A program made the translations under genes and the position numbers. Under the pieces are notes generated by a model that was not told the origin of the DNA, did not search any database, and worked only from the letters and a program-made list of their open reading frames with translations. Of a stretch of DNA of 64,000 bases, positions 9,587 to 34,400 are shown piece after piece. Every line of letters begins with the position of its first letter. Position 1 is the first letter of the stretch. Location: NCBI GenBank assembly GCA_043228905.1, contig JBHGNT010000002.1, positions 12,276,001 to 12,340,000 on the forward strand, read 5' to 3'. This DNA is from Azolla caroliniana. Its lineage: Eukaryota > Plantae > Polypodiophyta.

Positions 9587-11262
9587 TAAAGCCACAAGAC
9601 TTTCACATCCCTTGGAAATTCCCAACAATATGTGGGAAAGTATATCCATGGATTTTATTGTTAGCCTTCCTCGCACCCAAAAAGACCATGAAGCCATTTG
9701 GGTTGTGGTTGATCGACTAACTAAAATGGCCAGATTTATTGCTACTAAAACCAGGGTAACAACTCTTGAATTGGCTTACCAATTCGTTGACGAGTTATTT
9801 CGTTTTTATGGGTTACCGATGGATATCATGAGTGATTGAGATCCAAAGTTTACTAGCGACTTTTGGACGCAAGTCTTTAAGAAGTTAGAAACTAAATTGA
9901 GCATGAGCTCCACGGATCATCCTCAATCCGATGGATAGACAAAACGAGTAAATCAAATTATTGAGGACATACTTTGTGCATGTGTTGGTATAAAACCAAC
10001 AAAATGGGAACGTTATCTCCCAATTTTGGAGTTTTCTTATAACAGCTCCAAGCATACATCGACGGGATATAGTCCTTTTATGTTGATGTATGGTTTTCAG
10101 GCATGAGCCCTGATTGATGTTAATATACATCATGATGAGTTGTGAAGTACACAAAACTTTCTTCGGGATATGCAAGATATGTTGCATATTGCATGAGAGA
10201 ATATAAAAATAATAGAGCGTGTTTTTATGCCGATCATAATAGGCAACCTCGTGTATACAACCCTGGACAAAAGGTATTTTTAAATGTACCTCACAATTCT
10301 AAGACATTGTCTACGGGTAAGTGTGCTATGTTAGCCCCACGGTTTTGTGGAACTTTTACAGTCCTCAAACCCATCGGTTCATCATCCAATTGTCTCAGTC
10401 TTCTTAATGGCGTTGAAATCCATTCATTTTTTCATGTAAGTTGTCTAGAAGAACTTCTAGGTTCTCGCGACAATACAGTTACAACTAAAACTCTGGTTAC
10501 TTCAAAAGAATTATCTTCCAAACCACATGTACCAGAAATAATTTTCGATGTTAAAAAAAAAATTGTGTTCTAAAATAATCCGAGAATTCAAAATTAAATG
10601 GATGGATAAATCTATCAAAGATGCCGCATGGGAATACGAAAATACTCTTAGAACTAACTTCCCTAACTTTCCATTGCAAGAGTGCAATGTTTTAAAGAGG
10701 GGGGAGTATGTTATGGTCATGACCATAAAATATCCCATGGTGAGAATTTACCGTCGTATTCTATACACGTCCACGATAAAGTGTGAGGGTTAAACGAGAG
10801 TGTAAAGAAGACCTTTTGGTGGTGGGACCCTGGACTGTTTAAGTGTTGGTCCCGGGGCACCTATCCTGGCGCATTCTTGCTTGCTTGCTTGCTTGCTTGC
10901 TGAACCCGGGTTGGCGTTAGCTAACCGCCTACCAAACTTGACCTGCTTTCATCTTGGGGCCTGACCCGCTTTATTCCTCGTCGTTGAGGGCGTGCTTGCT
11001 TGCTTGTTGGGGCACTCGACCACAATAAAGGGAGAGAAGCTTTCACGACTTCCCACGGTGTGGCCATTACTCTCAAAGGGTAAGCTGGTTTCACCGTTAT
11101 GAGCCAGTTATTGAAAAAGCGTTCGCACGCTTGTGGGGTGAAAGGCCAGAGGAGGACTCCTTTTCCCTCTTCTTGTGGTCCTTCGGACTTCAACAAAGGA
11201 ACGGCGGAGTCGTAGCTCTTTGATTCACCCCTAACCACGAGTCATCCCCGTATTTTGCCACA
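9587..11262 (+). mobile_element. Degenerate Ty3/gypsy chromovirus 3' end (integrase, chromodomain remnant, PPT, 3' LTR from 10709); target of element A; right end approximate
   Basis: HPLEIP..WESISMDFIVSLP..VVDRLTKMA integrase motifs, an FKIKWMD..AAWE chromodomain-like tail, and PPT aagaggggggag followed by TGTTA at 10709. Confidence 0.7.
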
Positions 11263-14242
11263 TACGTGAGTTCAGTCCTCCAAGGCCTCTGTGGAGAGCT
11301 CAATTCAACTTGCTCGTGGCTAGATCAATCGGTTTCGGGTCAAATAGATTACTTTTAATCCTCGGGATTGAGACTGCATGAGGCTGCACCAGAAAGTTCA
11401 TCAGGAGATCCCAGTCAACAATGAGTTGTCAGTTTCATTTGCTAGAGCATTTGCATATGAGTACTGCAAAACAACGAAGGAATCCAGAGACCCTGAAATG
11501 TATAGGGTAGCTTGGGCAGTCTATGGTGAGGCATCGGTAAAAAGATGTTGAAAGATGGGGACCTTGGCACAAAAAATAAACAGATTTTGGAGCATGGCAG
11601 TTGTTGATGCAACTGCCGACTCCCAGCAAGACCGGGGGCATACACCACACCGACACCCAAGGAAAGCCAATGTCGATGATACAGGTGAGACATTGGTTAG
11701 CTATATGCTAAAAAATGTCCATGAAGCCTGTGAGACATTGACATTTTTTAAGACTGATTTAGAGAAAGCCACAATGGCTTCTGCAATGGAGAGCAAAGTT
11801 ACTTCCGTTGTTACAACGATTAGAAATAAGATTCAGGTAACTATTGTTTTGCTGGTATGTGATTGTGTTATAAATAACTTTAAGGGTAAAATGTGCTAAT
11901 CAAGCATTATTTGGAATAGGTTGCGCAACAAGAGCTTGAATTAGAGGGGCCACTGGATCCCCAACGTAAAATACAACTGCAAATAGAGATCCAGGTTCTT
12001 TCAATGAACCTGGACCTTCTAGGTGTAAATACTGTTGCAGATTACAATTTGGATAAGCTTCAAGTAAGTTAACGATTCCTGACCAAAGTTGGTGTATCTT
12101 TCAACAACAGGAATAATTAATCGGTAAATTTCTCTGTTGCGTTGAAGGAACAATACATTCATCAAGAACAGGTAGTTAGCTGCCTTAAGAAGCAGCTACA
12201 TTTTGTGGAGGGAATGGTAAGGACCAGACAGGATTTGGACCTGAACATTCTTGCTCCCTTACCAAATGAAGGAGAACCAGAAAATGATTTATTGACAGTT
12301 CAAACACGTTGCATCGCTTGCGGGTTAGGTGTGGAGGACAAAATTGCGTCTTTGTTGGTTCACCTACAACCATGCAACCACACATACCATCTGCTTTGTT
12401 TTCAACATGCCTGTCAAATTGTTGCATTCTGTTTGGGAGATTGCAGTACAGCTCTACCAAATGAGTGGAGAAAACTAACAGGTATACCATACTATAGCTA
12501 ATAAGCTTAGTCTTTTCTAATTAGCTAAGCCGTAAAAAGTATGGAAACTATTTTGTTGCTATCGTTGTAGCTAATTAGCTACTACCATAGTTGATTAAAG
12601 CAGTTAATAGCTATCCTATTAGTTAATTAGCTACTGCCATAGTTTACTACATTAGTTAATTAGCTAAGTGGCAGCTAGTTAGCTACTAGCTAATTAGCTA
12701 TCCTACTGGCAACTAGTTAGCTACTACCTAATTAGCTACTCATAGCTCTAATTAGCTAGCACCATAGTTGTGTAAAGTAGCTAATTAGCTATCCTACTAG
12801 CTAATTAGCTACTGGCAACTAATTAGCTATCCTAGTAGCTAATTAGCTATCCTACTAGCTAATTAGCTATCCTACTAGCTAATTAGCTATTGCCATAGTT
12901 GTGTAAAGTAGCTAATAAGCTATCCTAGTAGCTAATTAGCTACTGGCAACTAATTAGCTATCCTAGTAGCTAATTAGCTATGGTACTAGCTAATTAGCTA
13001 GTACCATACTTGTGTAAAAAAGCTAATTAGCTATCCTACTAGCTAATTAGCTATGGTACTAGCTAATTAGCTAGTACCATACTTGTGTAAAAAAGCTAAT
13101 TAGCTATCCTACTAGCTAATTAGCTAGTACCATACTTGTGTAAAAAAGCTAATTAGCTATCCTACTAGCTAATTAGCTACTGGCAACTAATTCGCTATCC
13201 TACTAGCTAATTAGCTATCCTATTAGCTAATTAGCTACTGGCAGCTAATTAGCTATCCTAGTAGCTAATAAGCTATCCTAGCTACTACATAGTTGAGAAA
13301 GTAGCTAATTAGCTATCCTAGCTACTACCATAGTTGAGTAAAGTAGCTAATTAGCTATCCTAGCTACTACCATAGTTGAGTAAAGTAGCTAATTAGCTAT
13401 CCTAGCTACTACCATAGTTAGTAAAGTAGCTAATTAGCTATCCTAGCTACTACCATAGTTGAGTAAAGTAGCTAATTAGCTATCCTAGCTACTACCATAG
13501 TTAGTAAAGTAACTAATTAGCTATCCTAGCTACTACCATAGTTAGTAAAGTAGCTAATTAGTTATCCTAGCTACTACCATAGTTGAGTAAAGTAGCTAAT
13601 TAGCTATCGTGCTAGCTAATTAGCTATCCTAATTAGCTATCGTACTAGCTAATTAGCTATCGTACTAGCAAATTAGCTATCCTAAATAACTGCCATGTTA
13701 TTGTAGAATCTTGTGGATTAAGGACGGCACATGATGTGTCTGGTGCTGATGACGCTGCAACAGATGAGGATACTGCTGCCAACGTGGCTGAAAGTAAGAG
13801 TCCTGCTATCACATCTCCTTCAAATCAGCACCACCCTATTCTTTTGGAACAATGTACTGAATTAGGCAACGATGTGAAATGCCATGAAATAGTGGAAACA
13901 ACATGTAAAACTGAGGTTCACAACAACAGTGTTTATGAACACTTGATGCAACATTTCTTCGAACCTCAAGACCTTGATTCCACCCCACCGAGCCCAACTA
14001 CTAAAAATGTCCAAACAGATCCCTCTGTACTTGAAAAGCTAGTTCAAGAAACGGCTGATGTGCAATTAGTTGTTGAGGCGATGGGAAGGTTGTCGGAGGA
14101 GGACACACTTGCGCATTGGGTGAAAGAAGCAAGGCTAAATGGGCAACCGGCCAGAAAAAGGCTGAAGAAGGGGCCACGATCGGGAACAAGACCAGTTACT
14201 TGGTCAAGGGGCCAAGACGTAGTGGAGCAAAATACTGTTTAG
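11263..14242 (+). pseudogene. Spliced gene for a coiled-coil/RING-H2 finger protein (putative E3 ligase) with lesions; probable transposon cargo
   Basis: RING-H2-like CIAC..CNHTYHLLC..CLGDC in ORF 12142-12501. GT-AG introns 11837-11919 (phase 0) and 12482-13706 (phase 1) both keep the frame (KLT-E-SCGLRTAHDVSGADD). The middle junction near 12064-12110 is uncertain and premature stops are present. Confidence 0.6.
12500..13690. repeat. Satellite array built on the palindrome TAGCTAATTAGCTA (20-bp and ~41-bp units) filling an intron
   Basis: Dozens of agctaattagctatcctact-type monomers and ctactaccatagttgagtaaagtagctaattagctatcctag-type units. Confidence 0.95.
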
Positions 14243-14466: not shown

Positions 14467-15467
14467 ATGTTGGTGTTTTCTGATGTTGCAGAGTCTAAAG
14501 GGTTTGATTCTATTGCTCGTAAGGCCAATGGCAGTGTGGATACTGTTGATGTTGCGGCATGTTTAAGGGCCCCATCTTGAAAGTAGATGTAGCAACTAAC
14601 ACAAGTGATTTGGTCACACAAGTTGATCAAGCATGTTGCACAGATGACTTGGTGTTGCAGGTAGATGCAACATGTGATACCAGTGGACTGATATCAAGCA
14701 GATCAGTAGCTACATGCACCGAGGTAATCCAAGGATTGATAACTAAGTCGACAAAACAAGAGCACCAGAATGTGAAGCCAAGCCCAACATAGTCGACTAG
14801 GGGTTTGAAGAGGAAAAGGACGCCAGTTGTGTCGGCCGAACCTGAGCTGATTGAGATTGATCGTGTCCTACCAGAAAATGGTGTAACAGCGGCTCAGTTT
14901 CAGGAATGGAAACCTAAACCACTAGAAGTCGAAAGAAGAGCCTTGATCTTGGAGCTTGATAAAGTCTTGATGAGTGTGAGATATATGCAGCCAAGGAGGG
15001 ACGCGAATCAGTTTCTAGAGTGGGCTGTGCAATACTTTGATTTGTTTATTTGGAGTGAAAAACCAAAATCAGATGTGTGGAAGTGTTTAGTAAGATTCTT
15101 CCCAAAATGGCGAAGTCGTTTTAAAGGTCAATGGGCACGAGAAAATTGTGAGCAAATGGAAGCTGTAAGATTCAAGAGACTTTCTGATTTTTGGGCTACT
15201 TGGCCTGAATATAATGCCGACAATACATTGATTTTGGATACAGAACATTTCCGGCACTACTTCAATATTCGGAGATGCTGTCTCATTCTACCCGAGGAAA
15301 TGCCTGAACAGTGCCTGGTGCAAACAGTGAGCTGCCAACTAGGTGCATGGTTGTGGACTCCATACCGAGATCGATATGTGGATAATATATGTAGACTCGT
15401 TCCACTGACTAGCAAGAGCTTAGCTGTTTATAGGAGATTTGTAGACATTTCCAATGGTAATTTATAA
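14467..15467 (+). pseudogene. FCP1/NIF (CTD-phosphatase-like, HAD superfamily) domain protein with a substituted catalytic motif; probable transposon cargo
   Basis: ALILELDKVL (DxDxT position), RRDANQFLEW..FDLFIWS and FKRLSDFW..YNADNTLILD match the NIF pattern. ORFs 14559 and 14805 are in frame across a TAG, and KRKR is NLS-like. The 5' start is tentative. Confidence 0.6.
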
Positions 15468-15815
15468 ATATGTAAAGAGATGACATTATTCAATGAAGAA
15501 TTTAATTACTTGTTCCCACTATACTTATCTACTGTGTAATTTGAGGAATATGTTGTAGATTGTTGATTTCATGCTATTGATGACTATTTAGCTATTGACA
15601 GCTAATTAGCTGCATTTGTACAGCTAATTAGCTACTGATGACTATTTCGCTATAACTTATAACTTAAAACTTAACAAAAAAGACATGATTTTATTGAGAA
15701 AGAAGCACAAAAAGCAGACTGTATACAAGAAATTGATTCTCAAACGAATTTATTTAACTGTTTTCGTGAAATACATGTTTGTTTTACAAGAGAACATGGT
15801 AATTGCTACTTGTAG

Positions 15816-17656
15816 CTACAAATTCCATGGCATACTATTGTAAATACATTCATACACATTAGCACCAATAGTGTATAAACCTAAGCAGCTATTGTATTCT
15901 GACATTGGGACGTTGATGCACCTGACCAAATGAGAGTACATGTATGCCGCTGGTTTGTCTTCTAACAGCCTGTACACATATTCGTAGTCATCTAGTTTTG
16001 CATAAAAAATGCCTTCAATGTAGAATGTCCCGGCAGATACAAAATTTCCCCATGCATCTACAATATTCTGCCTTGCACACTGTTTACTAACCGTGAACTT
16101 CAATATATAGAAATCAGCACCCTCTGAATTGCCTTCTTCAGCATTTACAGCGAAGTTATCCCCAACGTTCAGGACATCACTCAAAGTATCTCCAAGTCCC
16201 TCATATGTGAAGTCAGCATTCTGCCCTGTTTCTCCATCAACTGCTTCCTTATCATTCAGAGTGTGATACTCCCAATTCTGAAAGTATGCTTTGTTTAGAC
16301 AATATCTCCAATTCCCAGCACACAATGGAAGCAAAAACAAGTCAATTCTCTAACCGCAATACAATGACCATCCAACCTGGAATAACCGCGAACAGCATGC
16401 AGAGATCGCAATTCGGGAATTCCTTGGCACTCCTAGGTATTCTCCCTATTTACTTCATCTATCTTCACTTCCCAAAATTCACGTTTGATATCTCGGACTT
16501 GCGAGGAATAAACACCTGTTGCACTCGTTGACATATTTGTTCTTAAAAATTCAACTACATGTGATGCACAATTCATGTGCACACCATCTATCTTTAGTTG
16601 TTCATGGGTAAGTGCCCGCTTTATAACAGCCCCTGCACCATCATGTTCACCTTTACCATGGCCAGACCCAAAAAAATTCCATCTCATCTCCAAACCTGTT
16701 ATAGCAGGATACCTCCCCACAAAATAAAATGGACGTCGAGCCTTGAATTGTGACGTAGCTCTGTCAGACCAGACCCAATGTTGAGTAAGCTCCAAACGTT
16801 GAGCTAATAACCACTGCCAATGTAACTTAAAACTGTGTTGGACGAACAAGGTATCATGCTTCTTATCATCGGAAATAAAGAAATGAATTACCTTTTTAAC
16901 ATCACCTGAAACTCGAAAATATGTTATGTGCACAAAAATGGTTACCTGAACTGAACACCAATGCATAGATTGAATTTCATTCTACTGCTTGAAAGTATAA
17001 TTCTCTGTGAAATCTACTACTGAGACTACTACATCATTTGGGAAATCAGATATGGAAGTCTTAAACTGATGGGCTTGCCATGAATAAATGAAGTTGTGTT
17101 TAATGAACTTTCCTAGAGATACTACAAACAGAGACACCAAATCCCTTGGTTTAAGCATCTTCCGAACTAGATCCTTTCTTTTACACACCTTTCCTTCGAA
17201 ATTGGTGTTCACTGACTCAAAGAACTTCACAGAGATCAATATTTCACTACTCAATTCATTTGGACACCACCTAAATCTAGTAGGGCCACAATCTTGACAT
17301 AAACCCATGACACATTTATGAATATGGAAGATAGCGTCAGTTTCTCTCGGACACAATATTGAATCTAATAAATAACTCATGGAAGAGATAACGTGCTCAA
17401 ATGATTTACACTCCTCTTGCGGGCTTGATCGACAGATTGGGCACCCACATGTGCAAACTGTATTAGTTAGGGATGCGCTATGGTGATGTAGTAGATTAAC
17501 AGAGTCCTTCAGGAAACCCATCTGTACATGGTAAATGCAACAACATGTGTATCGATCCTTTAAGCATCTCACAAAGTGTGGCTTAAGAGACTCGAATGTT
17601 CGTAGTTGAACTTTGATAGTTGGATGCATTCGTTTGAACCTAATAAATAAATCGAC
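15816..17656 (-). pseudogene. Sola2-like DDD transposase, degenerate; upstream exons lost
   Basis: Motifs TCCCIYH, CxxGLCQDCG, VVDFTENY, EIQSMHW, ISDDKKHD, WSDRATSQFK, WNFFGSGHGKGEHDGAGAVIKR and RELTCFCFHC. Stops at 16982 and 16433 and a frameshift near 16320. CAG acceptor at 17659-17657. Confidence 0.75.
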
Positions 17657-17689
17657 CTGCGTAATAAAGGGGAATTAGTTATTCTCGTA

Positions 17690-18960
17690 ACTAGCTAACT
17701 ATCCTAGTAGCTAATCAGCTATTCTAGTAGCTAATTAGCTATTCTAGTAGCTTATTAGCTATTCTAGTAGCTTATTAGTTGTTCTAGTAACTAATTAGCT
17801 ATCATGGTAGCTAATTAGCTATTCTAGTAGTTAATTAGCTATCATGGTAGCTATTCTAGTAGCTAATTAGCTATTCTAGTAGCTTATTAGCTATTCTAGT
17901 TGCTTATTAGCTATTCTAGTAGCTTATTAGCTATTCTAGTAGCTAATTAGCTATCATGGTAGCTAATTAGCTGTCCTAGTAGCTAATAAGCTAATTAGCT
18001 GGTCTAGTAGCTAATTAGCTATCATGGTAGCTAATTAGCTGGTCTAGTAGCTAATTAGCTATCATGGTGGCTAATTAGTTGTCCTAGTAGCTAATTAGCT
18101 ATCATGGTAGCTACTTAGCTTTCCTAGTAACTAATTAGCTATCATGGTAGCTAATTAGTTGGTCTAGTAGCTAATTAGCTATCATCGTAGTTAATTAGCT
18201 ATCATGGTGGCTAATTAGCTGGTCTAGTAGCTAATTAGCTATCATGGTAGCTAATTAGCTATCATGGTGGCTAATTAGCTATCCTAGTAGCTAATTAGCT
18301 ATCATGGTAACTAATTAGCTTTCCTAGTAACTAATTAGCTAGTTAGCTTTCCTAGTAGCTAATTAGCTATTCTAGTAGCTTATTAGCTATTCTAGTAGCT
18401 AATTAGCTATTCTAGTAGCTTATTAGCTATTCTAGTAGCTTATTAGCTATTCTAGTAGCTAATTAGCTATCATGGTAGCTAATTACCTGTCCTAGTAGCT
18501 AATAAGCTAATTAGCTGGTCTAGTAGCTAATTAGCTATCATGGTAGCTAATTAGCTGGTCTAGTAGCTAATTAGCTATCATGGTGGCTAATTAGTTGTCC
18601 TAGTAGCTAATTAGCTATCATGGTAGCTACTTAGCTTTCCTAGTAACTAATTAGCTATCATGGTAGCTAATTAGTTGGTCTAGTAGCTAATTAGCTATCA
18701 TGGTAGTTAATTAGCTATCATGGTGGCTAATTAGCTGGTCTAGTAGCTAATTAGCTATCATGGTAGCTAATTAGCTATCATGGTGGCTAATTAGCTATCC
18801 TAGTAGCTAATTAGCTATCATGGTAACTAATTAGCTTTCCTAGTAACTAATTAGCTAATTAGCTTTCCTAGTAGCTAATTAGCTATTCTAGTAGCTAATT
18901 AGCTATTCTAGTAGCTTATTAGCTATTCTAGTAGCTTATTAGCTATTCTAGTAGCTTATT
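17690..18960. repeat. Second TAGCTAATTAGCTA satellite array (20-bp monomers, ~516-bp higher-order duplication) in the inferred transposase intron
   Basis: Monomers agctaattagctattctagt and agctaattagctatcatggt. The variant agctaataagctaattagctggtc occurs at both 17981 and 18497. Confidence 0.95.
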
Positions 18961-19042
18961 GTGGTGGTCCGGGACACATAGCAATCACCTGCCCACATAC
19001 GCCAAAACGACAAGTAAATCAAGTAAGTACTAGTGAGAAAAT

Positions 19043-22000
19043 TGGAGTGGCAAGCTCAACCGGATCCGAATCGGCATCCAGAAGGGTGAGCCGGTGAGTT
19101 GGGGAGCCAGTGAGCTGGATCAAGCAGTAACCGGAAGCCAAGTACCAGCTAGTCTACTAGGGAGTTAATATCTCGTAGTTAGTGTCCAACGCTCATGTGA
19201 GCATTGAAGTACACCATACTTCTATCAGTCCGAATAGACTTGTATAAAAGTGTTCACTAAACACATACGATGTACAAACTGAGTAGTATTTTTTTAATTG
19301 AGTATTTGTGTGCTCTCTCTCTGTCTCTGTCTCTCCCACGTACTGTTAAGCTCTCCATTAAACCTGTTTTCTGCTTTCTGTTTTCTATTGCTTCCACACG
19401 CTATTTGTTTCCACATGATATCAGAGCGCGAGGGTTGAGAACCTCTGCAGCCGACATTCGCTTTCGAAAGAAGAAAACCTAACCTTTGTAAAAAACAAAA
19501 AAAAAACAAATGGATAGAGGAATGGCTAGCTCGCTCCCGGTGAAGAAGCTCGACAGATCCAACTACGCATCTTGGTCATACAAGATGCACCAGTACCTGC
19601 TTGGGCATGGTTACTAGAGCTATGTCGACGGAGCTAACAACACAGCACCTGATGTGGCACACAAGGATTTCTCTGTGTGGGAACAATCGGCAAGCAGAGT
19701 GATGTACTGCTTTGTGTCCAGTGTCAGAGACCAGCTGTTGAGCCACGTTTGAGATGCCAAGACACTGAAAGAGGCTTGGGGAAACTTGAAGAAGGTGTTT
19801 GCCTCAAGCACTACAACCCAAGAGCTGCAACTCCGACAGGAGTTGAGCAATGTCCGACAGAAGGACATGTCGGTGGCTGATTACACGGCCCGAATCAAAG
19901 AGATCTGTGACTCGCTTGCTTGCCTCTATCAATGTCACATTAGAGGAAGACGAGATGGTACAGGTCTATCTTCAGGGCCTGGCGTCTAAGTTTCGAACTT
20001 TCAGGACAGCTATATGTACAAGGGAGAATACGCCGTCATTTTTCGACTTACAGTCGATGCTCCTTGTAGAGGAGAACCACGCCAGTACGTCAACAAGTGC
20101 ACCCATCGACAACCGGATGTTGTACACGGAGGCGGATCGGCCCCGTGGGCGTGTTGGATGAGGCGGGTCGGCACGCAATGGAGGCGGCCGGCAAGGGCAA
20201 GACCGACAACACAAAGACCATGCCGACAACAGTTCTAGGACTTCCACAAGCAGGGGGAGTCAAGGTGACGCCGGAGGCCAGCAAGACAAATCCATCACGG
20301 AATGCTGGTACTATGGCAAAAAGGGCCACAGAGAAAGCGAGTGCTGGAAGAAGCATGCCGATTCGGACAGATCTGGACACGGCAAAACCGGTCGAGAGAG
20401 CTGGCAAAGCTCGCACTACGCGCAAGGATCGAAAGGATCCGGAACCGGGAAGACTGGTAAGGGGCCAGCCTTGGAGATGAAGCACGAGGCAAATTCGATG
20501 AACAAGATCACTTTCAAATAGGAGGAAGTGCGCCGATTCGGAAACATCTGGATCCGGCAAAACCGGTCGGGAGAACCAGCAAAGCTCGCACTACGCGCAA
20601 GGATCAAAAGGATCCGAAACCGGGAAGAATGGGAAGGGGCCAGCCTTGGTGATGAAACATGAGGCTAACTCGATGAAGAAGACCACTTCCAAATCGGACG
20701 AAGTGTGGTACGTTGATTCCGGTGCATCAAATCACATGACGAACCACAAAGAGTGGTTCTCCTTCCTAGAGAAACCAGAACAACCGGGAGTTGTCGAAAG
20801 CGGAGACGACACTCCTCACCCAATCGTGCATATCGGTGATGTCCCTTTGAGCCATGTCGGACAGAGGGGGAAGCTTATGAACGTATTACACATTCCGACT
20901 ATCACGAAGAACCTGGTGTCGGTTGGACAAATCGTCGACCAGGGAATGCAGGTGCGGTTTACGCACCTCACGTGCTTCATCGAGGAGGAGGGCCAGATTA
21001 TTGCGCAAGGGCGCAGAGACAGGAGCATGTTCATCCTCAACACCAATGATGTCAGCACCGCTTTGTTTGCCAAAGGACAGAAGATTGAATCCGACATCGA
21101 TCTTTGGCACAAGCAGATCGGCCACGTCAAATACCAGAGGCTTTAAGACCTACAAACGAAACAAGTTGTTTTCGGTTTGACGAAATTTAGTGGCCGGAAG
21201 GCCCAAGTATGTGAGGCCTGCCAACTCGGGAAGCAACATCGGCTTCCATTCCCCACTGAACGAAACCGTAGTCATAACAAGCTCGACCTTATTCATTCGG
21301 ATGTATGGGGACCGGCACAGAACGTGAGTCTTGGCGGGAGTCGATGCTTCGTCTCCTTCATCGACGACTATAGTCGACACACATGGATCTACCTCATTGA
21401 GCGGAAGAGCGAAGTCTTCGACTGTTTTTGGAACCTCCAGAGCATGGTGGAACGGGAATCGGAGAGGAAGATTAAGTGCCTGCGGTCATATGGCGGAAAA
21501 GAATATTTTTCCGGCCAATTCAACAGTTATCTGCAGCAAACAAGAATTCGGAGAGAGTTCAGCTGCAGATACACACCGGAGCAAAACGGTGTGGCCGAAA
21601 GGAAGAACCGGTCGCTTGTCAACGCGGCAAGGGCAATGCTGGAAGACAAGAGCATGCCCCATTTCTACTGGGCGGAGGTAGTCCGGACGGCCGTCTACGT
21701 CCAAAACCGGATCGGTGACAAGGTGTCCACGCGTGAGCTGTATTTCGGGCGCAAGCCGAATTTGAGACACCTTTGGATTTTTAGCAACATAGCATACGTG
21801 CATGTGTCGAATGAGAAGCGGAGGAAGCTGGATGCAAAATTGGAGAAGTGCATCCTCGTCGGCTACTCACATGAACAAAAGGGGTATAAGTGTTATAACC
21901 CCCGGATGAAGCAGGTCGGAGTTAGCCTCGATGTTGAGTTTGACGAGACGTCATCATGGTATGCCTTACCGGCTCCGACTTCCGACCGCGACCCGATATC

Positions 22001-24954
22001 GGAGGATGAGGCTAGTGAGCCTGAACCAGTCCAGATAGAAGATGATGAATCCGGGATTCAAGAAGAGAATCCGGAATCGTTTCGGTTGAGTGGGCCAAAC
22101 GAGAGACTGGGTCAATCCAACCAATCAGAAGAGGAATCGGCAAGTGGTGAAGACTCTGTCGTGCTCTCCCCGCGCAAGGAACCAAGGAGATGGTTCATGC
22201 ACAAAGAGAAGGGGAAGAAGAAGATGCCGGATTATGAAATCGGTAATGATGAGTCGGATCAGAGCGGATCCAACTCCGGAAAGGAAAATGACGGCTCTTT
22301 GGCACCAAAGAGCGAACCAGCCAAGAAGGGCCTCAAACCGGGTAACAGTGGGTTACGCCGGTCAACCCACCAGAAGGAACCTGTTAAGCGGTACAAGTAC
22401 AATGAGTACATGGCGCATCACTATGCGTACATGACCCAAGTGGCGGAAGTGCGTGAGCCGGAGAGCTACGCAGAAGCGGCAAGGGATGCAAATTGGTGTG
22501 CCGCTATGGAGGAAGAGATGCGGGCACTTGATGCCAACGATACATGGGACCTGGTTGACCCTCCCCATCATAGTAAACCGATCGGATGCAAGTAGGTGTA
22601 CAAGGTAAAGTACAACGTTGACGGTTCAGTTAACCGGTTCAGCGAAGATGACGACGGTTCGTGTGGTGCTGGCGGTTGCTGCGCCAAGGGAGTGGCATCT
22701 TCACCAGATGGACGTGAAGAATGCATTTCCTCAAGGCGATCTAGAAGAAGAGGTCTTTATGAAACAACCTCCTGGTTTTCAGTCGGTGATGAACAAGTCG
22801 GTTGTATGTCGGCTGAAGAAGTCACTTTATGGCCTGAAGCAAGCCCCCTGAACTTGGAATGCAAAGATTACACACCGGTTGCGTAAGTTGGGGTTTGTGG
22901 CATCCAAGTTTGACTCTTCATTGTTCATCCGGCAAGGTTCGGACGGTCCAGTTTGCATCTTGCTGTATGTTGATGATCTAGTCATCACTGGATCGAGACT
23001 CGATGAAATCAACCGAGTCAAGTCCCAACTATCAGACGCATTTGAGAGGAAGGACCTAGGGGACCTTCACTATTTCCTTGGGATCGAGGTGATCCGAACC
23101 CCCGACGGCATATTGCTCTCACAAAGACACTATGTGTTGAATATGATGTACAAGTTCGGCATGACGGAATGTCACCCTATTTCTACACCCTTGGACCGGA
23201 AACAGAAGCTCTGTCCCAACTCCGAACCGGCCTACGATGAGAAACGGTTTCGACAAATTGTCGGAAGCCTTATATATTTGACCATCACCCGACCCGACAT
23301 CAGTTATCCGGTCGGTGTGATTAGTCAATTCATGCAGAAGCCGACCGTCGAGCATCTTCAGTGCGCGCACCGAATACCGCGGTATGTGAGCGGCACGAAG
23401 GACCGGGGACTGTTATACCGGCGAGGTATGACCGAAGAGCTAGTCGGCTACATGGATGCCGACTGGGCCGGCGATGCATCAGATCGTCGTTCCACTTCCG
23501 ACTATATGTTTTCCCTTGGTAGTGCAGCTGTTGCGTGGAGCAGCAAAAAGCAGCCAACAGTGGCTCTGTCGAGCACTGAGGTTGAATACTGGGGCGCTAC
23601 CGTTGCCACCTGTGAAGCCATTTGGCTTCGGCGACTACTGCAAGACCTGCGGATCGAGGTGCCGACCCCAATCCTGATCTACTGCAACAACATAAACAAC
23701 ATGCAGCTCGCCAAGAACCCCGTATTCCATGCTCGCACAAAGCACATCGAAGTGCACTACCACTTCGTGCGTGAGCATGTCCTGAGCAGTGAAGTCGAAC
23801 TTCGGTATGTTCATACAGATTGGCAAGTTGCCAACATCTTCACCAAACCGCTCGGATCGGATAAGTTGCAGCACTTCACCAAAATGCTTGGTGTTCAGCA
23901 TCTCGACGTGCCACACTTGAGGGGGAGAATGGGCAAAGACACCACCGGAACGGGCAAAGGCAAAGAGACTGCTGATTGCACCGATGGGGGAAGAACTGAC
24001 AAGGGGAGAGACAGGAAGAAGAAAGGAGGCGAGTCGACAAAGGAAGTTGACACATCCGAACAAATCGGAACAAGCGGCAGCGGAGGCAGAGTCAAGAAGG
24101 ACAGAGCCGACCGGAAGAAGAAGGCCAAGACCCGGACATGGTCCAATGTGGTGAAGGGCCTGGAACCAGAAGACGAATCGGGAGCAACCGATTCGAACAA
24201 GAGCTGGAACGAATCGGAGACAGCCAATTCGGTTCTACAGAAGGATTCGGAAGAACCGGATCAATTCAAGGCCAAGAGGACAAGAAGGCAGCAAAAGTCG
24301 ACGCCAACACGAAGGGATCAGCGAATCGGCAAAAGCCAAAGTCACAAGAACGAGGGAGTTGAATTGGGCTTGTTGAGTAGACAAGCCGACCAAGGAAGTC
24401 GAGGTGCGCAGGAACATAAGGGTCGCGGAAAACGGGACCAGACCGGACGAGGAGCACGAGCGAGGCGGAGTGACGCTAGAAGGAGCCAGGTGGAAGGACC
24501 GGTTGTCATAGAGACTGACACTACGATCTGACCTCAAATTGAGCTTGAGGGGGGGTGTTGAGTGGCAAGCTCAACCGGAACCGGATCGGCTGAATAAGCC
24601 TGAGCCGGATCGACATCCAGAAGGGTGAGCCGGTGAGCTGGGGAGCCGGTTAGCTGGATCAAGCAGTAATCGGAAGCCAAGTAGCAGCTAGTCTACTAGG
24701 GAGTTAATATCTCGTAGTTAGTGTCAGACGCTCGTGTGAGCATTGAAGTACACTGTACTTCTGTCAGTCCAGATGGACTTGTATAAAAGTGTTCACTGAA
24801 CACATACGATGTACAGACTGAGTAGTATTTTTTGAATTGAGTTTTTGTGTGCTCTCTCTCTGTCTCTGTCTCTCCCTCGTACTGTTAAGCTCTCCATTAA
24901 ACTTGTTTTCTACTTTCTGTTTTCTATTGCTTCCGCACGCTATTTGTTTCTACA
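19043..24954 (+). mobile_element. Full-length Ty1/copia element F with AAAAT target-site duplication
   Basis: LTRs 19043-19415 and 24556-24954; PBS tgatatcagagc (tRNA-iMet-like) at 19416; PPT 24541-24555; AAAAT at 19038-19042 and 24955-24959. Confidence 0.92.
19510..24531 (+). pseudogene. pol: Copia gag-pol of element F (stops, frameshifts, gag duplication, RT deletion)
   Basis: WYVDSGASNHM protease, CEACQLGKQ and HSDVWGP integrase, HQMDVKNAF and LLYVDDL RT, DADWAG..TKHIEVHYHF RNase H. Confidence 0.9.
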
Positions 24955-25149
24955 AAAATTAATTCCAATTTCCCAGTTAGATTATCTATCCCTAGTAGCC
25001 CCACATGTCTAGGCCAATCCAATAGTTTTGAGGTCTTGAGTCAGCTTGATGAAATATTAAATGAATAAGTCCAATCAAAATCGGAGCCATTCGGTTAGAA
25101 AAACCAGAATACGTAAAGTCAGCCCCAAGTAGTGGTTCCATTTTATCGA

Positions 25150-28100
25150 ATCATGTTAGTAGAGTTTTTTCAGCACAACTTGAGCTTAGCACTTCTAGGT
25201 GACATCGAGTTCTTGCATCTGCTCTCTTAGATTCAGGATCCAACTCTTGTTTTATGGACAAAGAATTTGCTTTATCCCAAAAAATCCTATTGAGAAACCT
25301 CCTTTGTCCTGCATCCGTTGTAGTCATTGATGGTCGCCCTATTGCATCTAGGGATATAGTCGAAGAATCCGAGCCAATTCGAGTAGTCCTTGGTAGCTTT
25401 GCTTGTGTGATTTCCTTCAATATAACTAGTAGTCCTGAGCATCCGGTTATCCTTGGTTTCCCTTGGTTTGAGCTTCATAATCCTAAAATTGACTGGAGAA
25501 ATCGAGCAATCAATGATTTCCAGTTGAAACCTGAATGCAACAACTTTGTTACTACCAACCAAGATTCAAAAACTCACCAAATCTCGCTCATATCTCTACA
25601 AAACTTACGAGAAGACAGGCGAACAAATGAAATGTTTGTCTTTGCAGTAACGGCAAATCCATCCTCTAGTTCACAAGGGGCATGTACTCACCTCCCTACT
25701 AAGTACTTGGATTTTGAAGACATCTTCAACAAAACTAAAGCTAGTTCTCTTCTACACCATCGTCCTTATGATTGTCCGATTGATCTACAACCTGGGAAAG
25801 AGCCACCATTGATCACCTTCTAAAGTCAAGGCCCTTCGAGAGTATATAGATGAGCACTTAGCAAATGGATTCATTCGACATTCTAAAAGCCCTACTGGTG
25901 CACCCATATTCTTTGTCAAGAAGAAAGATGGGTCTTTACAATTGGTCATGGATTATCGAGGTTTAAACAAAATCACAGTTCGAAATAGATATGCTATACC
26001 CTTGATATCGAGTTTACTAGAGCGTCTTAGTGGAGCTAAAGTGTTCACAAAGCTAGACCTTCGAGGCGCATATAACCTTGTTCGGATACGTTCAGGAGAC
26101 GAATTGAAGACAACATTTCATACTCGATACGGACATTTCGAGTACATGGTTATGCCTTTTGGTCTCACGAATGTGCCCACAGTTTTTCAACACATGGCGA
26201 ATGATATATTTCGTGACTTCTTGGATTCATTTACCATAGTATATCTTGATGACATCTTGATCTACTCAAAAAGTCAAGAAGAGCATGACACACATGTCCG
26301 CGAAGTCCTCCAACGCTTACGAGAATATGGGCTTTATGCCAAACTCGAGAAATGTAGCTTTGATCAAAACCACGTGGAGTTTCTAGGGTATGTGGTTTCA
26401 CAACAAGGTATATCTATGGATCCATCCAAGGTGCAGACAGTTCTAAATTGGGAAACACCTCGCTCAGTGCGTGATGTTCAGTGTTTCTTAGGATTTGCGA
26501 ATTTTTACCGCAAATTTATCAAGAACTACGCGAACATCGTGATGCCTCTCATGGAGCTTACACGAAAGAACAAGTCGTTCAGATGGAGTTCCAATGCGGT
26601 CAAAGCTTTTGAAAACCTAAAGAGAGCATTCACTTCTGCTCCTATTCTACTTCATGTTGACCTAGAAAAACCCTTTATCATCAAGGCGGATGCGTTTGAT
26701 TTTGCACTAGGAAGTATCTTGTCGCAGGTTGGAGATGACGGAAAACTGCATCCAATTGCTTTCCATTCACACAAATTCGAAGCTGTAGAGATCAATTATG
26801 AGATTCACAACAAAGAGCTCCTAGCCATTATAGACTCGTTTGAACAATGGAGACATCTCTTGGAAGGTTCTCCCCACCAAATCATTGTTTACAATGATCA
26901 TAAAAACCTCACATACTTTCAAAATGCTAGAGGCTTGAGTCGACACCAAGCTTGTTGGGCACAATTCCTGACACATTTTGACTTCCTCATCACATATCAC
27001 CCTGGAGTACAACAAGGAAAGGCAGACGCTCTATGACGACGATCTTATTTGGCGCCACAACCAGGTGAGCCCACATTTGATCATCAAAAGCAAGTCATCC
27101 TGGGGCCTAATCAGTCACGACTATTAACTATTAATGCTTCTAAAGCACCTGAAGATTCCAGGCTCCTTGATTCAATCCGAATAGGTATCATTTCTGTTGA
27201 ATTTGCTCAAGTTGTATTGAATCATATAATTTCCGATTGTGCGTCTTCTTCAAAATCCAAGTATCCTTGTAAAGATTATAACCAGTTTCAATGGAAAAAT
27301 GGGTTACTTTTTCGTAACACTCTTTTGTCCCCAATGGTTCATCTCGACTCCAAGTAATGCAATATTTTCATGACAACCCAATGGCTGATCACTTTGGAAT
27401 CCACAAAACTTTGGAGCTAGTTTCTCGAAACTATTGGTGGCCTCATTTTTGGGATTTTGTTGAGGATTATGTTCGTACTTGTGACGTGTGTTGTCAGTCA
27501 AAGATTCCACGACATTGACCATATGGGTTATTACAGCCATTGCCAGTTCCTACCGGTCCATGGAAATCCATCTCTGTGGACTTTATAACAGATCTTCCAC
27601 TTTCAAAGAGTTTTGACGTTATCCTCATTGTAGTAGATCGATTTACAAAGATGGCGCATTTTCTTCCATGCATGAAAACTATCAACAGTAATGAAACTGC
27701 AGACATCATTATGAAAGAAGTATTTCGGCTTCATGGTCTTCCAAATGACGTCATTAGTGATCGTGGCCCACAATTCATTTCAAAATTCTGGAAACACTTG
27801 CTTGAGATGCTCAAAGTCTCTTGTAAACTTTCTTCAAGCTATCATCCACAAAGTGACGGTCAAACCGAACGCACAAATCAAACTCTAGAACAATATCTTC
27901 AATGTTTCATCAATTATCAATAGGATGATTGGGTGGATTTTTTACACTTTGCAGAGTTTGCATACAATAATTCGGTTCATTCTTCAACATGATATACTCC
28001 ATTTTTTGCAAACATAGGATATCATCCCCGTTGGATGATGATCGAACATCCAGAAATCTCGAAAAATCCTGCCACTAAGGACCGTCTACACCAACTTCAA

Positions 28101-28695
28101 GAAGTTCATGTTGCACTTTCTCACCATTTTGCATACGACGCAAGCCACACACAAGAAGGCTACAGATCGTCATTATCTTGACTCTTCACCAGAGGAACCA
28201 AAATTTCGAATTGGGGATCGCGTACGGCTATTACGATGTAATGTGAAGACCACTAGACCTTGTGATAAGTTGGATTATCAACGACTTGGTCCATTTATTA
28301 TCTCTCATCAAATCAATGATGTTGCATTCCGCCTTGATCTGCCCCCACGCATGCATCTACACCCAGTATTTCATGTCTCATTGTTGGATCCTTACAATGC
28401 TAGTTCCATTCCAAATCGGGTTGTTCTACCCCCACCTCCGATTCAACTTGTTGATGGCCCAGAATTCGAAGTCAAAGCTGTTCTGGACTCCAAGATAGTA
28501 CGTAAGAAGCTTTATTATCTCGTGGACTGGTTAGGTTATACACCTAATGATCGTACTTGGGAACCGGCCAAGAACCTTGGCAATGCCTCCGATTTGGTAG
28601 CTGAATTTCATCGTCAATATCCAAATAAACCAAGCCCCAATTCATGCATTACGACTTGTGGAACTCGTCATCGAAGGAGGGAGATGGTGTCATGA
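25150..28695 (+). pseudogene. pol: Pol of element G ending in a type-I chromodomain
   Basis: ORFs 25254, 25942, 27540 and 28108; C-terminal FEVKAVLDSK..YYLVDWLGYTPNDRTWEP. Confidence 0.9.
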
Positions 28696-29138
28696 GTAGA
28701 TGAAACCCCATGAGGTTTAGGGTGACCTCCTAAGGAGAAGCACTCAACTCTAGCCATTACGTTATATATGTTCTACATAAAGATATTATAATTTACTTTA
28801 TTGTAATATTGATAATGTAACCCTATAAATATCCAAAGGGTGCCATGACCCTTCAATATCCTAAAGGGTGTCATGACCCTTCAATATCCCAAAGGGTATC
28901 ATGACCCTACAACATCCCAAAGGGAAAATGACCCTACAAACATCCAAGGGGCATATACTACTCCTATATAAATAGGACATATTGTATTGTTAGAACCATT
29001 CTGGTTCAACACCAGTCTTTGGCAAATATTCTAGTTCTTGCTCTTGTATATTTTCCTATTATAATAAAATGTAGTCATTGTTCTCTCTTTCTTTTCCTCT
29101 CTTGTTCAATCTTCTTTTGTCAAGCTAAGGCCTTGACA
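28688..29138 (+). repeat. 3' LTR of element G with internal ~28-bp palindromic tandem repeats
   Basis: TGTCA...TGACA termini; aagggtgtcatgacccttcaatatccc-type units at ~28828-28950; TATATAAATA at ~28965. Confidence 0.85.
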
Positions 29139-29199
29139 CTTTCTGTTTTGGTTGTATAAGAACCGACCAAGCTACCTTTGCTATAGTATTATCTACACT

Positions 29200-30998: not shown

Positions 30999-31443
30999 AT
31001 GGCAGCCCAAGCTCTTCTGAACCATGGTTTTCTCGCTTCTCTGTCATCTCCCACTGCCTCCTCTTCCATCTCTGTAAGTTGTTCTTTTCGCTTCTTCTAG
31101 AAATGAATGATACGAGCAATAATTCAGAGATGACACCCCCCAAACCCTCTCACAGTTGAGGAATGGCTCACACTGACCTTGTTGTGTGCTTATTTTTGTG
31201 TCTTCGTGTTGGAAATGTGTAGAGAAGGAAAAGCTTTCAAGGAAAGCAACTTCAGAGTACGCTCCATTCCTCCTCGTCTTCTCATGCGAGGAGGCACTCG
31301 TCTTCTCTTTCGGTGAGAGCGAATTCGAAGGACATTGTTTTCGATCAGAAGTCACGGGCCGCATTACAAGCAGGTATTGACAAGCTTGCAGATGCTGTTG
31401 GTGTCACGCTTGGACCCCGAGGTATGAAAGCCACGCCTTTTCA

Positions 31444-31480
<37 letters not shown>

Positions 31481-34400
31481 GGTGGTAGAAGGCACAAAAT
31501 TATAATTTTGTGGTGTTTTCAGAGTCTTTCCTCGCATGCTGTCTGTATCTTATTTTTTCCCTCTCATGGAAACTTACAAAGTAGATTTCTTGAAGTCTTA
31601 CAGGCTAATATGTTGTTCTTGTAGAGAGAGAACTCCCTTATATTGTTTTGCTTGCTGTTTATTTTTCTAGTATTTTACGGATATGACTTAAGAGGACTTC
31701 TACAAAGTTTTGCAGTACAGGAATTCTGGTTTCGTTTAGTTTTATATATCATTTTTGTTGGAAACTTAAACGAATGTTTTCTCAAATCCCATGCACAGGG
31801 CGGAATGTTGTGCTAGATGAGTTCGGTTCACCAAAGGTCATTAATGATGGAGTAACCATCGCCCGTGCGATCGAGTTGCCCGATCCCATGGAAAATGCTG
31901 GTGCTGCTCTTATAAGAGAGGTGAAGTTGGATAGTTCTATCTTCTTCTTTCAAAACAAAAATAAAGCCTGATAAACATTTGTCCAACAAAACATTGATTT
32001 CAAAATGCATTTCATTAAGCTCTTTGATGTTTATGTTTCTAACATATTTTGGAAGTCAAAGTTGAATTTTGATGTTTTGTTAATACACATTGCAGTTCCA
32101 AATATTTTGTTAATTGTTAGAACATTGAATGTTATAGTGATGCTATGGTGTTCTCCAGGTAGCGAGTAAAACAAATGATTCGGCAGGAGATGGGACCACA
32201 ACTGCATCCGTGCTTGCAAGAGAGCTCATCAAACTGGGCCTTCTTACAGTAACTTCTGGTGCAAATCCGGTAGCTATTAAGAAGGGAATAGACAAGACAG
32301 TGGTGGCCTTAATTGAGGAGTTGAAGAAAGCATCTCGACCAGTGAAAGGCAGAGAGGATATAAAAGGTTTGTGGGGCTAATTTCACTAGGTTGTGTTCGT
32401 TTTGCAAAACTAACTTGTTACTGAAGGGCAGAGATTTTTTGAAAGTAACTGCACTTCTTACATGTGTAAATGGAGTCTCACAAAAATTATGAATAAATAC
32501 CTGGAACTTGTGAGAGAGTAGGAGTATAAAAGTTTGAAAATAGTGTTGTTCAACTTATTCTGTTGACACTTCCATACGCTGGATGGCTGAGCAATGGTAG
32601 GTATGGAAGCTTTCTATCTAATCAAATTATCAATATTTTTTACATTCGAATTGGCAGAAAATTCACTGCATGCTGGTTTGTCTGTGTTTGGCTGAGTTTA
32701 CTTTCTCTGCACGAAGTATGAAGAAACCAAAACTACAAATTCATAGCACAGTAATCGGATACTACCCTAAAAATAATGCTGAATTCTAGGAATTTAATTT
32801 AGTTACAAGTTTATTTACGTTGTATTGCGTTTTGTTCCTCATATAGAAAACTAAACTAGCTTTTTAGTGTATGGGAGTGTTTTCTTGTAACACTGTTATT
32901 GTAGTGGGTGCTAACTATTGTTGAAGATATTTGTGGACTTGATGGATAAGTAGTCCTTCTGTGTTCTTGGCAGCTGTGGCTTCCATTTCTGCAGGCAATG
33001 ATGATTCCATTGGCACGATGATTGCTGATGCTGTTGATAAAGTTGGCCCTGATGGTGTGCTCTCTATAGAGTCATCGTCTTCCTTTGAAACAACAGTTGC
33101 TGTTGAAGAGGGTATGGAGGTAAGTGCTGCATGATTTCAGTTTGATTCGTATGTAGCTGAGGATTTTCTGCAGAAAGCTTACCGAACAATCCCTTTCGTG
33201 TAGATTGACCGGGGCTATATATCTCCACAATTTGTAACAAATCAAGAGAAATTGATAGTAGAGTATGACAATGCACGAATTCTTGTGACGGACCAGAAAT
33301 TGACATCAATTAAGGATATACTGCCTGTTTTAGAAAAGATTTCACAACTCAATTCTCCCCTTGTTATTATTGCTGAGGATGTTTCTGGAGAAGCGCTTGC
33401 TACACTTGTGGTTAATAAGTTGCGTGGTATAGTCAGTGTAGCTGCTTTGAAAGCACCTGGATTTGGAGAGAGACGTAAAGCATTGCTTCAAGACATTGCT
33501 ATTGTTACAGGTGAGAATCATGCGATTATGTGAGTAGTACTTGATCTGAATCAAATTTGTTGCTGGTATGAGATCCGTGATTCACATTTTAATTATTTCT
33601 TAGTGAGTAATACATGATTCTAATCAATAATCTGCTTCGCCAATATAACTGAGATGATTTCCCTAATTTTTATAGGTGTGATTTTGACTCAGTGGTTCTG
33701 TTAATCTATGGTGGCCTTACAAGTTTATGTGATGGGTATTCTCTTACAGGTGCCGAGTTTATAGCTAGTGATCTTGGATTGAAGCCTGAAGAGACGACTG
33801 CTGAGCAGCTAGGAACCGCTCGTAAGGTGACCATCACCAAGGACTCTACTACAATTATTGCAGACGCAGCCTCAAAAGATGAGATACAGGCCAGGATAGC
33901 TCAAATTAAGAAAGAACTTGCGGAAACAGATTCTGTTTATGATACTGAAAAGTTATCGGAAAGAATTGCAAAGCTATCTGGTGGTGTAGCTGTTATTAAG
34001 GTGTAAATTGTTCTTGCAGATTGTGAAGTTTTAACCAATTTATTTAGAGATGCTTCTTATAGATTGTGATGGGAGTAATAACTCCTTTACTGTATGTAAG
34101 GAGTGAAGTAAATGGAAAAACTGTTTGGAAGAGGGTTTTTCAGAGTAGCTAGCTTTCCTATTTTCTTATGTGGCTGTTTTCTAATTTAAGAATTACATTG
34201 TTGCAGGTAGGAGCTGCCACTGAAACTGAGCTAGAAGATCGGAAGTTAAGAATTGAAGATGCAAAGAATGCTACATTTGCTGCCATTGAGGAAGGAATCG
34301 TGCCTGGTGGTGGTGCTGCATATGTCCATCTCTCAGCGAGGGTGCCAGCAATCAAGCAAACCATCATTGACCCAGAGGAGAAGCTTGGAGCAGATATTGC

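What the first reader, a model, noticed from the sequence alone, without database searches (positions are those of the whole stretch)
12482..13706. A 1.2-kb intron made almost entirely of a palindromic satellite, with splice sites that restore the RING gene frame
Seen: the donor ACAG|GTATAC (12481/12482) and acceptor TTGTAG|AA (13706/13707) join the RING exon in phase 1 to the 13736 ORF frame. Nearly everything between them is TAGCTAATTAGCTA-based repeat. Each monomer carries stop codons, TAG and a CTAAT branch-point-like word on both strands, so the pre-mRNA could fold into extensive hairpins. Inference: the array is tolerated or selected inside a spliced intron and could act as a protein-binding platform or small-RNA source.
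Basis: partly seen in the sequence, partly recalled or inferred. Interest (0 to 1): 0.72.

Follow-up and report, generated by a model that had tools for sequence, protein, structure and literature searches.

The report
Palindrome-filled intron in fern transposon
A 1.2-kb run of palindromic repeats lies between splice sites that a related copy also keeps, so it is likely a real intron, inside the second gene of a broken jumping gene (probably from a fern), and the repeats likely act as docking sites for one of the element's own proteins, an arrangement already known from Arabidopsis VANDAL transposons.

Summary
The array and both splice sites are there. The intron is not in a host gene. It lies in the accessory gene (novel N-domain, RING-H2, linker, probably a NIF-like domain) of a decayed, end-less Sola2-type transposon, tail-to-tail with the transposase. 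Frame restoration alone is weak (17 of 120 nearby GT-AG pairs do it). Conservation carries the case: paralogue L003 keeps donor, acceptor, phase and next exon around a different 918-nt array with the same AGCTAATTAGCT core. No RNA contig covered this junction; the neighbouring 83-nt intron is skipped in one contig of an RNA-guessed run. A second array precedes the transposase acceptor, and 59 of 59 exact cores in the window lie in the element. Cores are 2-3 times more conserved than spacers, and the two arrays of this copy resemble each other more than the orthologous array, as in VANDAL/VANC target arrays. Best reading: an element-specific binding platform parked in introns (binding untested). 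Main rival: neutral palindrome-driven expansion. This copy is dead (stop, 5' part lost). The scan noted this element design before on other DNA (e1-10618503).

The parts
10709..11348 (+). LTR-like sequence of an upstream Ty3/gypsy element; it replaces the 5' part of the accessory gene and the element's left end
   Evidence: polypurine tract then TGTTAT at 10709; SH3_Tf2-1 ORF upstream; other LTR copies run on differently after 11348 and other gene copies run on differently before 11372
11372..11836 (+). 3' part of accessory-gene exon 2 (L003 numbering), novel N-terminal domain; in-frame stop at 11549-11551 in this copy
   Evidence: 94.6% to L003; stop absent in L003 and in contigs of X1, X2, X3; homologous to N-terminus of A. 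nelumboides protein P0101, hhalign prob 97.9
11837..11919 (+). 83-nt GT-AG intron
   Evidence: skipped in 1 contig of RNA-guessed run X1 and in none from X2, X3, X4; P0122 reads through without it
11920..12063 (+). exon 3 (coiled-coil-like, inferred)
   Evidence: open in the spliced model of window and L003
12064..12147 (+). 84-nt intron (inferred)
   Evidence: acceptor anchor found in 4 of 4 copies; the donor anchor matched 3 of 4 (L002 differs by a letter); this join opens the frame
12148..12481 (+). RING exon; C-x2-C...C-x-H-x2-H-x2-C...C-x3-C (RING-H2-like) at about 12310-12444
   Evidence: 8 ligand positions invariant or >=90% conserved in 15 homologues; weak profile hits mostly to RING E3 ligases, best E 0.004; no Pfam hit for the window exon itself
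12482..13706 (+). the finding: 1225-nt phase-1 GT-AG intron; array of 45 AGCTAATTAGCT cores at 12496-13678
   Evidence: same donor, acceptor and phase in L003 around a 918-nt array
13707..14242 (+). exon 5 frame (acidic linker); probably ends at a donor near 14195-14220
   Evidence: 79 of 100 letters identical to L003 over its start, with an in-frame 9-nt gap; in-frame 18-nt insertion in an X3 copy, frame-breaking gaps listed only from 14242 on
14493..15467 (+). downstream coding region with a NIF/FCP1-like domain (ORF 14793-15467; motif I reads ELDKVL, a likely pseudo-phosphatase); probably the 3' end of the same gene; broken by a frame change and a stop
   Evidence: Pfam NIF E 1.3e-7; P0100 has RING + NIF, P0101 has N-domain + RING + start of NIF; junctions not resolved; direct BLAST to P0100 not significant
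15573..15653 (.). short cluster of the same core (2 exact copies) between the 3' ends of the two genes
   Evidence: absent from one X3 copy
15816..17656 (-). main exon of a Sola2-type DDD transposase with a BAH-like C-terminal domain; 2 stops and 1 frameshift in this copy
   Evidence: 94% to open P0001; motifs match Sola2 rows in a PMC3627910 supplement; integrase/RNase H fold Z 9.7, rmsd 3.5, 155 aligned; BAH Z 6.0-6.6
17673..18960 (.). second array (60 cores, 54 of 59 spacings 20 bp) just upstream of the transposase acceptor at 17657(-); likely the 3' part of a transposase intron whose donor is lost
   Evidence: homologous ORFs begin at or just after the same Q|V/M position
18957..19040 (+). 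Ty3/gypsy gag zinc-knuckle fragment abutting the second array; the element's right end is lost here; a copia element follows (about 19041-24954, AAAAT on both sides)
   Evidence: Pfam zf-CCHC E 0.001, below the curated cut-off

Best explanation
The stretch is a likely genuine intron in the accessory gene of a decayed Sola2-type DNA transposon, filled with tandem copies of an element-specific 12-bp palindrome that likely serves as a binding platform for one of the element's own proteins. Shown: the array, the GT-AG ends, their conservation in a paralogue, the broken state of this copy, and the same core beside the transposase acceptor and nowhere else in the window. Inferred: (1) active copies splice this intron; (2) the motif was amplified by slippage and copied between the element's two introns, the places where it costs no coding capacity; (3) a dimeric element protein (the accessory N-domain/RING/NIF-like protein, or the BAH-tipped transposase) binds the palindromes and keeps the element open or activates it, as VANC or TnpA do; (4) the spliceosome tolerates 134 AGs and 40 branch-point-like words because most are weak and predicted to be buried in core-to-core hairpins.
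For: Intron: L003 keeps donor, acceptor, phase and exon 5 start; its five-exon model is open for 434 codons, 36 of them past this intron. Of the three acceptors that fit donor 12482 (13676, 13706, 13763) only 13706 is kept in frame in L003 (alignment). The donor is present in 4 of 4 copies, and an X3 paralogue diverges right after it. 7 of 15 short homologous ORFs inspected carry G-K or G-I near their end, as read-through of a phase-1 GT would give. The gene's 83-nt intron is skipped in an RNA-guessed contig. Platform: 59 of 59 exact cores lie inside the element. Pairwise divergence of cores is 0.07-0.17 against 0.23-0.50 for spacers in the main unit classes of all three arrays, unchanged at 2-4 allowed mismatches. 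The two window arrays share 8 30-mers (both strands counted) but no 20-mer with the orthologous L003 array. Main spacings 19-20, 31-33, 41-42 bp are near 2, 3, 4 helical turns (not tested statistically). CG+CHG are 8% of cytosines against 22% in the host gene's introns. Precedent: VANC21 binds motifs arrayed in VANDAL introns that gain, lose and diverge together (PMC5735166 passages). Masking: mean unpaired probability of CTRAY words 0.12-0.18.
Against: No binding, methylation or expression datum exists for the array. The accessory N-domain has no Pfam, PDB-sequence or usable Atlas match and folded poorly (pLDDT 45), so it is not shown to bind DNA. Palindromes can repair themselves and expand by hairpin slippage, which would preserve cores without selection; cores were also picked by likeness to the motif and spacers fall in sub-types. 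One class shows no difference (18-bp units, 0 vs 0) and one little (31-bp, 0.22 vs 0.31). Spacings 13, 15, 18, 28, 47, 59, 67 are off phase. In a 12-site matrix the true acceptor ranks only 9 of 134 (L003: 6 of 109), and in L003 it is not more open than internal AGs (68 of 108 as open or more), so masking does not single out the real site. At least one 60%-identical subfamily shows no core in the first 30 nt after the donor. L003 switches from 97-100% to 84% identity to L001 near the RING exon end, so it may be a recombinant or a chimeric assembly, and it is the only copy spanning the intron.
Confidence: 0.5

Rival explanations
1. The intron is real but the array is a neutral minisatellite: a perfect palindrome seeds hairpin slippage, repairs itself, is copied between introns by ectopic conversion and survives only where it is spliced out.
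For: Units differ in length along the intron and between copies; near-identical recent 41-42-bp blocks (96% matches); extreme predicted hairpin stability; the second array ends at a deletion-type junction; the window and L003 arrays share no 20-mer.
Against: Cores stay while spacers turn over in all three arrays; a third cluster lies between the genes; an unrelated array in intron 1 of L003 shares the CTRATT half-site (16 against 0.36 expected).
Confidence: 0.3
2. The array recruits a host factor (the core holds TAATTA, a homeodomain-type site, recalled) and works as an intronic enhancer for the element.
For: Intron 1 of L003 carries 9 copies of TTAGGGTTT, a telobox-like host motif (label recalled; count), so this gene does collect host-type words in introns.
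Against: The core occurs nowhere else in 61 kb, including the host gene; a perfect 12-14-bp palindrome is longer than a typical host half-site.
Confidence: 0.1
3. The excised intron or pre-mRNA folds into long stems and feeds small RNAs that silence or tune the family.
For: z about -30 (window) and -11 (L003) against 12 shuffles each; RdDM targets VANC-bound repeats (PMC10398659 abstract).
Against: Predicted perfect stems are mostly 12-20 bp and any palindrome array folds like this; no small-RNA data were available.
Confidence: 0.06
4. The stretch is not spliced; the gene ends after the RING exon and the GT-AG fit is chance.
For: 17 of 120 nearby GT-AG pairs open the frame; modest splice-site scores; only one spanning paralogue.
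Against: Conserved ends and phase in L003; in-frame gaps in exon 5; annotated A. nelumboides homologues continue RING into an acidic linker and NIF (automated models).
Confidence: 0.04

Closest known systems
VANDAL21/VANC21 anti-silencing system of Arabidopsis (PMC5735166, passages seen; PMC10398659, abstract seen)
   Same: Short motif piled up by tandem repeat formation in introns of the transposase and accessory genes and in intergenic DNA; arrays differ between copies and units diverge together; an accessory gene beside the transposase.
   Different: VANDAL is Mutator-like, this is Sola2-type; the motif here is a perfect 12-bp palindrome, not YAGTATTAY; the accessory protein has a novel N-domain, RING-H2 and NIF-like parts with no Pfam match for the N-domain; binding and hypomethylation are shown for VANC and untested here.
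Sola2 DNA transposons (alignment rows in a supplement of PMC3627910; superfamily summary in PMC10741241, passages seen)
   Same: DF(A/S)ENY, EIQSxHW, ISDD, SDG.A.Q(Y/F)K, HGKG..DG motifs; DDD triad; known to capture second genes (Fanzor1 in amoebozoan Sola2).
   Different: Second gene is a RING/NIF-like gene, tail-to-tail; repeat-filled introns; BAH-like C-terminus; TIR and TSD lost in this copy.
Spm/TnpA and transposase-intrinsic activation (bioRxiv 10.64898/2026.08.24.746577, abstract and outline seen)
   Same: Precedent that a transposase or derived protein activates cognate copies sequence-specifically, so the transposase is also a candidate binder.
   Different: Different superfamilies; not tested for this element.

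Membership tests
Spliceosomal (U2) intron | GT...AG ends in a phase that opens the frame | tested here: met
   weak alone (17 of 120 pairs)
Spliceosomal (U2) intron | ends and phase conserved in homologues | tested here: met
   both ends in L003, donor in 4 of 4 copies
Spliceosomal (U2) intron | removed from RNA | tested here: inconclusive
   RNA-guessed runs laid (X1, X4 on both flanks, X5 on one) have no cover at either side of the junction
Spliceosomal (U2) intron | strong acceptor or branch point that outcompetes internal sites | tested here: inconclusive
   rank 9 of 134 in a 12-site matrix
Sola2 transposons | DDD triad within Sola2 motifs | tested here: met
   D206, D289, D330 invariant in 24 of 24 aligned homologues; motifs compared by eye with supplement rows; no profile search against Repbase
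Sola2 transposons | RNase H/integrase fold | tested here: met
   VIA Z 9.7, rmsd 3.5, 155 aligned; Foldseek gave no hit at E<=0.001
Sola2 transposons | terminal inverted repeats and 4-bp TSD | not testable with these tools
   both ends replaced by retroelement DNA; no genome held; L001 and L003 too short
VANDAL/VANC | Mutator-type transposase | tested here: not met
   Sola2 motifs; 0 Pfam families at E 0.05 for P0001 and P0002
VANDAL/VANC | VANC homology of the accessory protein | tested here: inconclusive
   no Pfam hit for the N-domain or RING exon; no direct comparison with a VANC sequence was made
VANDAL/VANC | motif arrays in introns and intergenic DNA of the element, evolving in concert | tested here: met
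VANDAL/VANC | element protein binds the motif and removes methylation | not testable with these tools
   needs ChIP/DAP-seq and methylomes
RING-H2 E3 ligase domain | eight C3H2C3 ligands | tested here: met
   last pair is C-x3-C; ligase activity untested

The most novel reading that the evidence does not exclude
Sola2 transposons of seed-free plants evolved, independently of VANDAL, a self-addressed anti-silencing system: a novel-domain/RING/pseudo-phosphatase protein docks on phased palindromes in the element's own introns and ubiquitinates or displaces silencing factors, and the palindromic design lets the same array hide its branch-point-like words in RNA hairpins so that the intron still splices.
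Probability: 0.2. Interest if true: 0.72.

Novelty: new variant of a known kind. Interest (0 to 1): 0.42.

Why it matters
If the platform reading holds, sequence-specific self-activation through intronic motif arrays arose in a second transposon superfamily and in seed-free plants, with a ubiquitin-ligase-like effector and a known 12-bp target, which makes it directly testable. The intron is also a natural test of how a plant spliceosome picks one acceptor among 134 AGs and 40 branch-point-like words. If the neutral reading holds, it is a minisatellite in a dead transposon.

Tried and rejected
No whole genome held. No holder on record as RNA was listed (X1, X4, X5 are guesses) and none covered the junction flanks: no evidence either way. 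Longer homologues of the RING exon: 0 of 414 candidates. 4 of the 27 hits were long multi-stretch proteins that proved to be bacterial Ig/cadherin repeats (P0088, P0089, P0092, P0095) and were dropped as chance. N-domain model pLDDT 45, not fold-searched; Atlas gave nothing usable; PDB sequence search nothing real. Viral contigs: 0 loci for the transposase (144 pattern hits, none confirmed) and 0 for the array pattern. Rejected own idea: a transposase donor at 18988(-), used; that DNA is a gypsy gag fragment, so the donor ranking for the second array is void. Rejected: an apparent short GT..AG join in L002 (what follows looks like an insertion). L004 breaks off within the RING exon and was not used. 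Helical phasing was not tested statistically (few independent spacing classes). Literature: 0 papers hold TAGCTAATTAGCTA; the listings showed no paper on such arrays in Sola2 or fern elements (listings only). The original Sola paper and the 2011 DDE/D survey were not held. PMC12477816, PMC5751038 and bioRxiv 2021.09.26.461848 (passages) added nothing on the intron. Two of the 14 supplementary files of PMC3627910 were not searched, and bioRxiv supplements are closed.

Full report
Observation. The donor (12481/12482) and acceptor (13706/13707) are as described and give a 1225-nt phase-1 intron that opens ORF 13649-14242. The 12-bp palindrome AGCTAATTAGCT occurs 59 times exactly in the window against 0.01 expected: 28 in this intron, 2 at 15600-15633, 29 at 17729-18904, none elsewhere. 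With up to two mismatches the intron holds 45 cores spanning 96.6% of it; the core itself is 44% of the letters, in units of mainly 20 (18 of 44 spacings), 33, 18 and 41-42 bp. All six frames are closed. The strand folds at -504.8 kcal/mol against -352.9 +/- 5.0 in 12 shuffles.

Context. The window is plant DNA rich in LTR retrotransposons with one host gene, a chaperonin-60 alpha-like gene (name from my reading of the translation). The named homologues of the accessory gene are from the fern Adiantum nelumboides, and those of the transposase from that fern, two conifers and Klebsormidium; the host is probably a fern, not identified. The RING gene lies tail-to-tail with a transposase at 17656-15816(-), 94% identical to an open protein but carrying two stops and a frameshift. 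Its invariant residues match the Sola2 motifs in supplement rows of PMC3627910 (a lead from e1-10618503, checked by eye). The model has an integrase-type core (Z 9.7, rmsd 3.5, 155 aligned) and a weaker BAH-like C-terminus (Z 6.0-6.6, below the level the tool calls safe). One X3 contig bridges the NIF region and the transposase end, so the pairing is not unique to this copy. Both element ends are replaced by retroelement DNA: at 11348-11372 and at about 18960, where a gag zinc knuckle abuts the second array.

The gene. Four related loci were found. L003 gives a five-exon model, open for 434 codons until the locus turns into other DNA, with introns of 497, 83, 86 and 918 nt. The window copy has lost exon 1 and the start of exon 2 and has a stop at 11549 that relatives lack. 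The product has a novel N-domain (24 homologues; related to A. nelumboides P0101), a RING-H2-like finger, an acidic linker and probably a NIF-like domain whose motif I reads ELDKVL. The NIF junctions are not resolved and rest on automated annotations. The 83-nt intron is skipped in one contig of an RNA-guessed run, and P0122 lacks it.

Is it an intron? Frame restoration is cheap: 17 of 120 GT-AG pairs near the edges do it. But L003 has the same donor, acceptor, phase and next exon (79 of 100 letters, in-frame gap) around a 918-nt array of 27 cores with different spacers. The two alternative in-frame acceptors are not kept in L003. The donor is present in 4 of 4 copies, a more distant X3 paralogue diverges right after it, and 7 of 15 short homologous ORFs carry G-K or G-I near their end, as read-through of a phase-1 donor would give. 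Limits: L003 is the only spanning copy and may be mosaic, and no RNA contig covers either flank. I put the intron at about 0.9.

How could it splice? The intron has 134 AGs and 40 CTRAY words. In a small matrix (12 acceptors, 11 donors from the host gene and this element) internal AGs average -0.5 bits against 2.7 for the real site, which still ranks only 9 of 134; the CTRAY words are predicted paired (mean unpaired 0.12-0.18). In L003 and at the transposase acceptor the last CTRAY lies 22 nt upstream and is more open (0.43-0.45). This fits hairpin masking, but in L003 the real acceptor is no more open than most internal AGs, so masking is a suggestion only.

What is the array for? For a binding platform: confinement to the element; presence beside both genes' splice sites and between the genes; cores 2-3 times more conserved than spacers in the main unit classes (0.07-0.17 against 0.23-0.50); sharing of 30-mers between the two arrays of this copy but of no 20-mer with the orthologous array; main spacings near whole helical turns (untested); few CG/CHG sites (though this follows from the core). 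These are the hallmarks reported for VANC21 targets, which lie in tandem repeats in the introns of VANDAL genes and diverge together (PMC5735166 passages). Against: no binder is shown, the N-domain is structurally dark, palindromes can preserve and amplify themselves, and one subfamily seems to lack the core at the intron start. I give the self-binding platform 0.5, neutral expansion 0.3, host-factor enhancer 0.1, small-RNA source 0.06, not an intron 0.04.

Comparison and novelty. It works, most likely, like a VANC-type target array, but it is not a VANDAL: the transposase is Sola2-type. Sola2 membership rests on motifs and fold; TIR and TSD cannot be tested here. My searches listed no paper on such arrays in Sola2 or fern elements; the original Sola paper was not available. 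This scan already noted a complete Sola2 element with a RING/pseudophosphatase gene and palindromic arrays on other DNA of this genome (e1-10618503, unreviewed; I did not see its sequence) and many Sola1-like elements with intronic palindrome arrays, so the design recurs in this genome. Verdict: a real, likely spliced, repeat-filled intron in a dead transposon copy; a new variant of a known kind; interest 0.42.

Noticed in passing
L003:61-557 (shorter in L001:3400-3624): Intron 1 of the same gene is filled with a different array: 9 TTAGGGTTT (telobox-like, label recalled) and 16 CTRATT words against 0.36 expected; it shares a CTRATT half-site with the palindrome. Absent from the window copy.
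   Followed up: partly
window 15816-16200 (-): Transposase C-terminus is BAH-like (several BAH domains at Z 6.0-6.6): a possible chromatin reader on a Sola2 transposase; not folded alone.
   Followed up: partly
window 18957-19040 and 24955-29140: A copia element (AAAAT on both sides) sits inside a Ty3/gypsy chromovirus-like element whose 5' part is missing exactly at the edge of the second palindrome array, a possible hairpin-linked deletion.
   Followed up: partly
window 30999-35061 (+): Intact host chaperonin-60 alpha-like gene, 9 exons, open frame; used as splice-site training set.
   Followed up: partly
window 12064-12147: The inferred acceptor is the rarer AAG; L001 and L003 have CTAAC just upstream, the window and L002 do not.
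   Followed up: no
proteins P0149/P0167 and P0043/P0098: Transposase and accessory-gene proteins list equal longest-contig lengths (10576; 8136), a hint that they share contigs, also in a distant subfamily.
   Followed up: no
window 11224-11348: This part of the LTR-like sequence has high depth (about 490-590) in both RNA-guessed runs laid; contig depth only.
   Followed up: no
L001:900-2600: A decayed pentatricopeptide-repeat-like reading (recognised by eye) lies upstream of that copy of the element.
   Followed up: no
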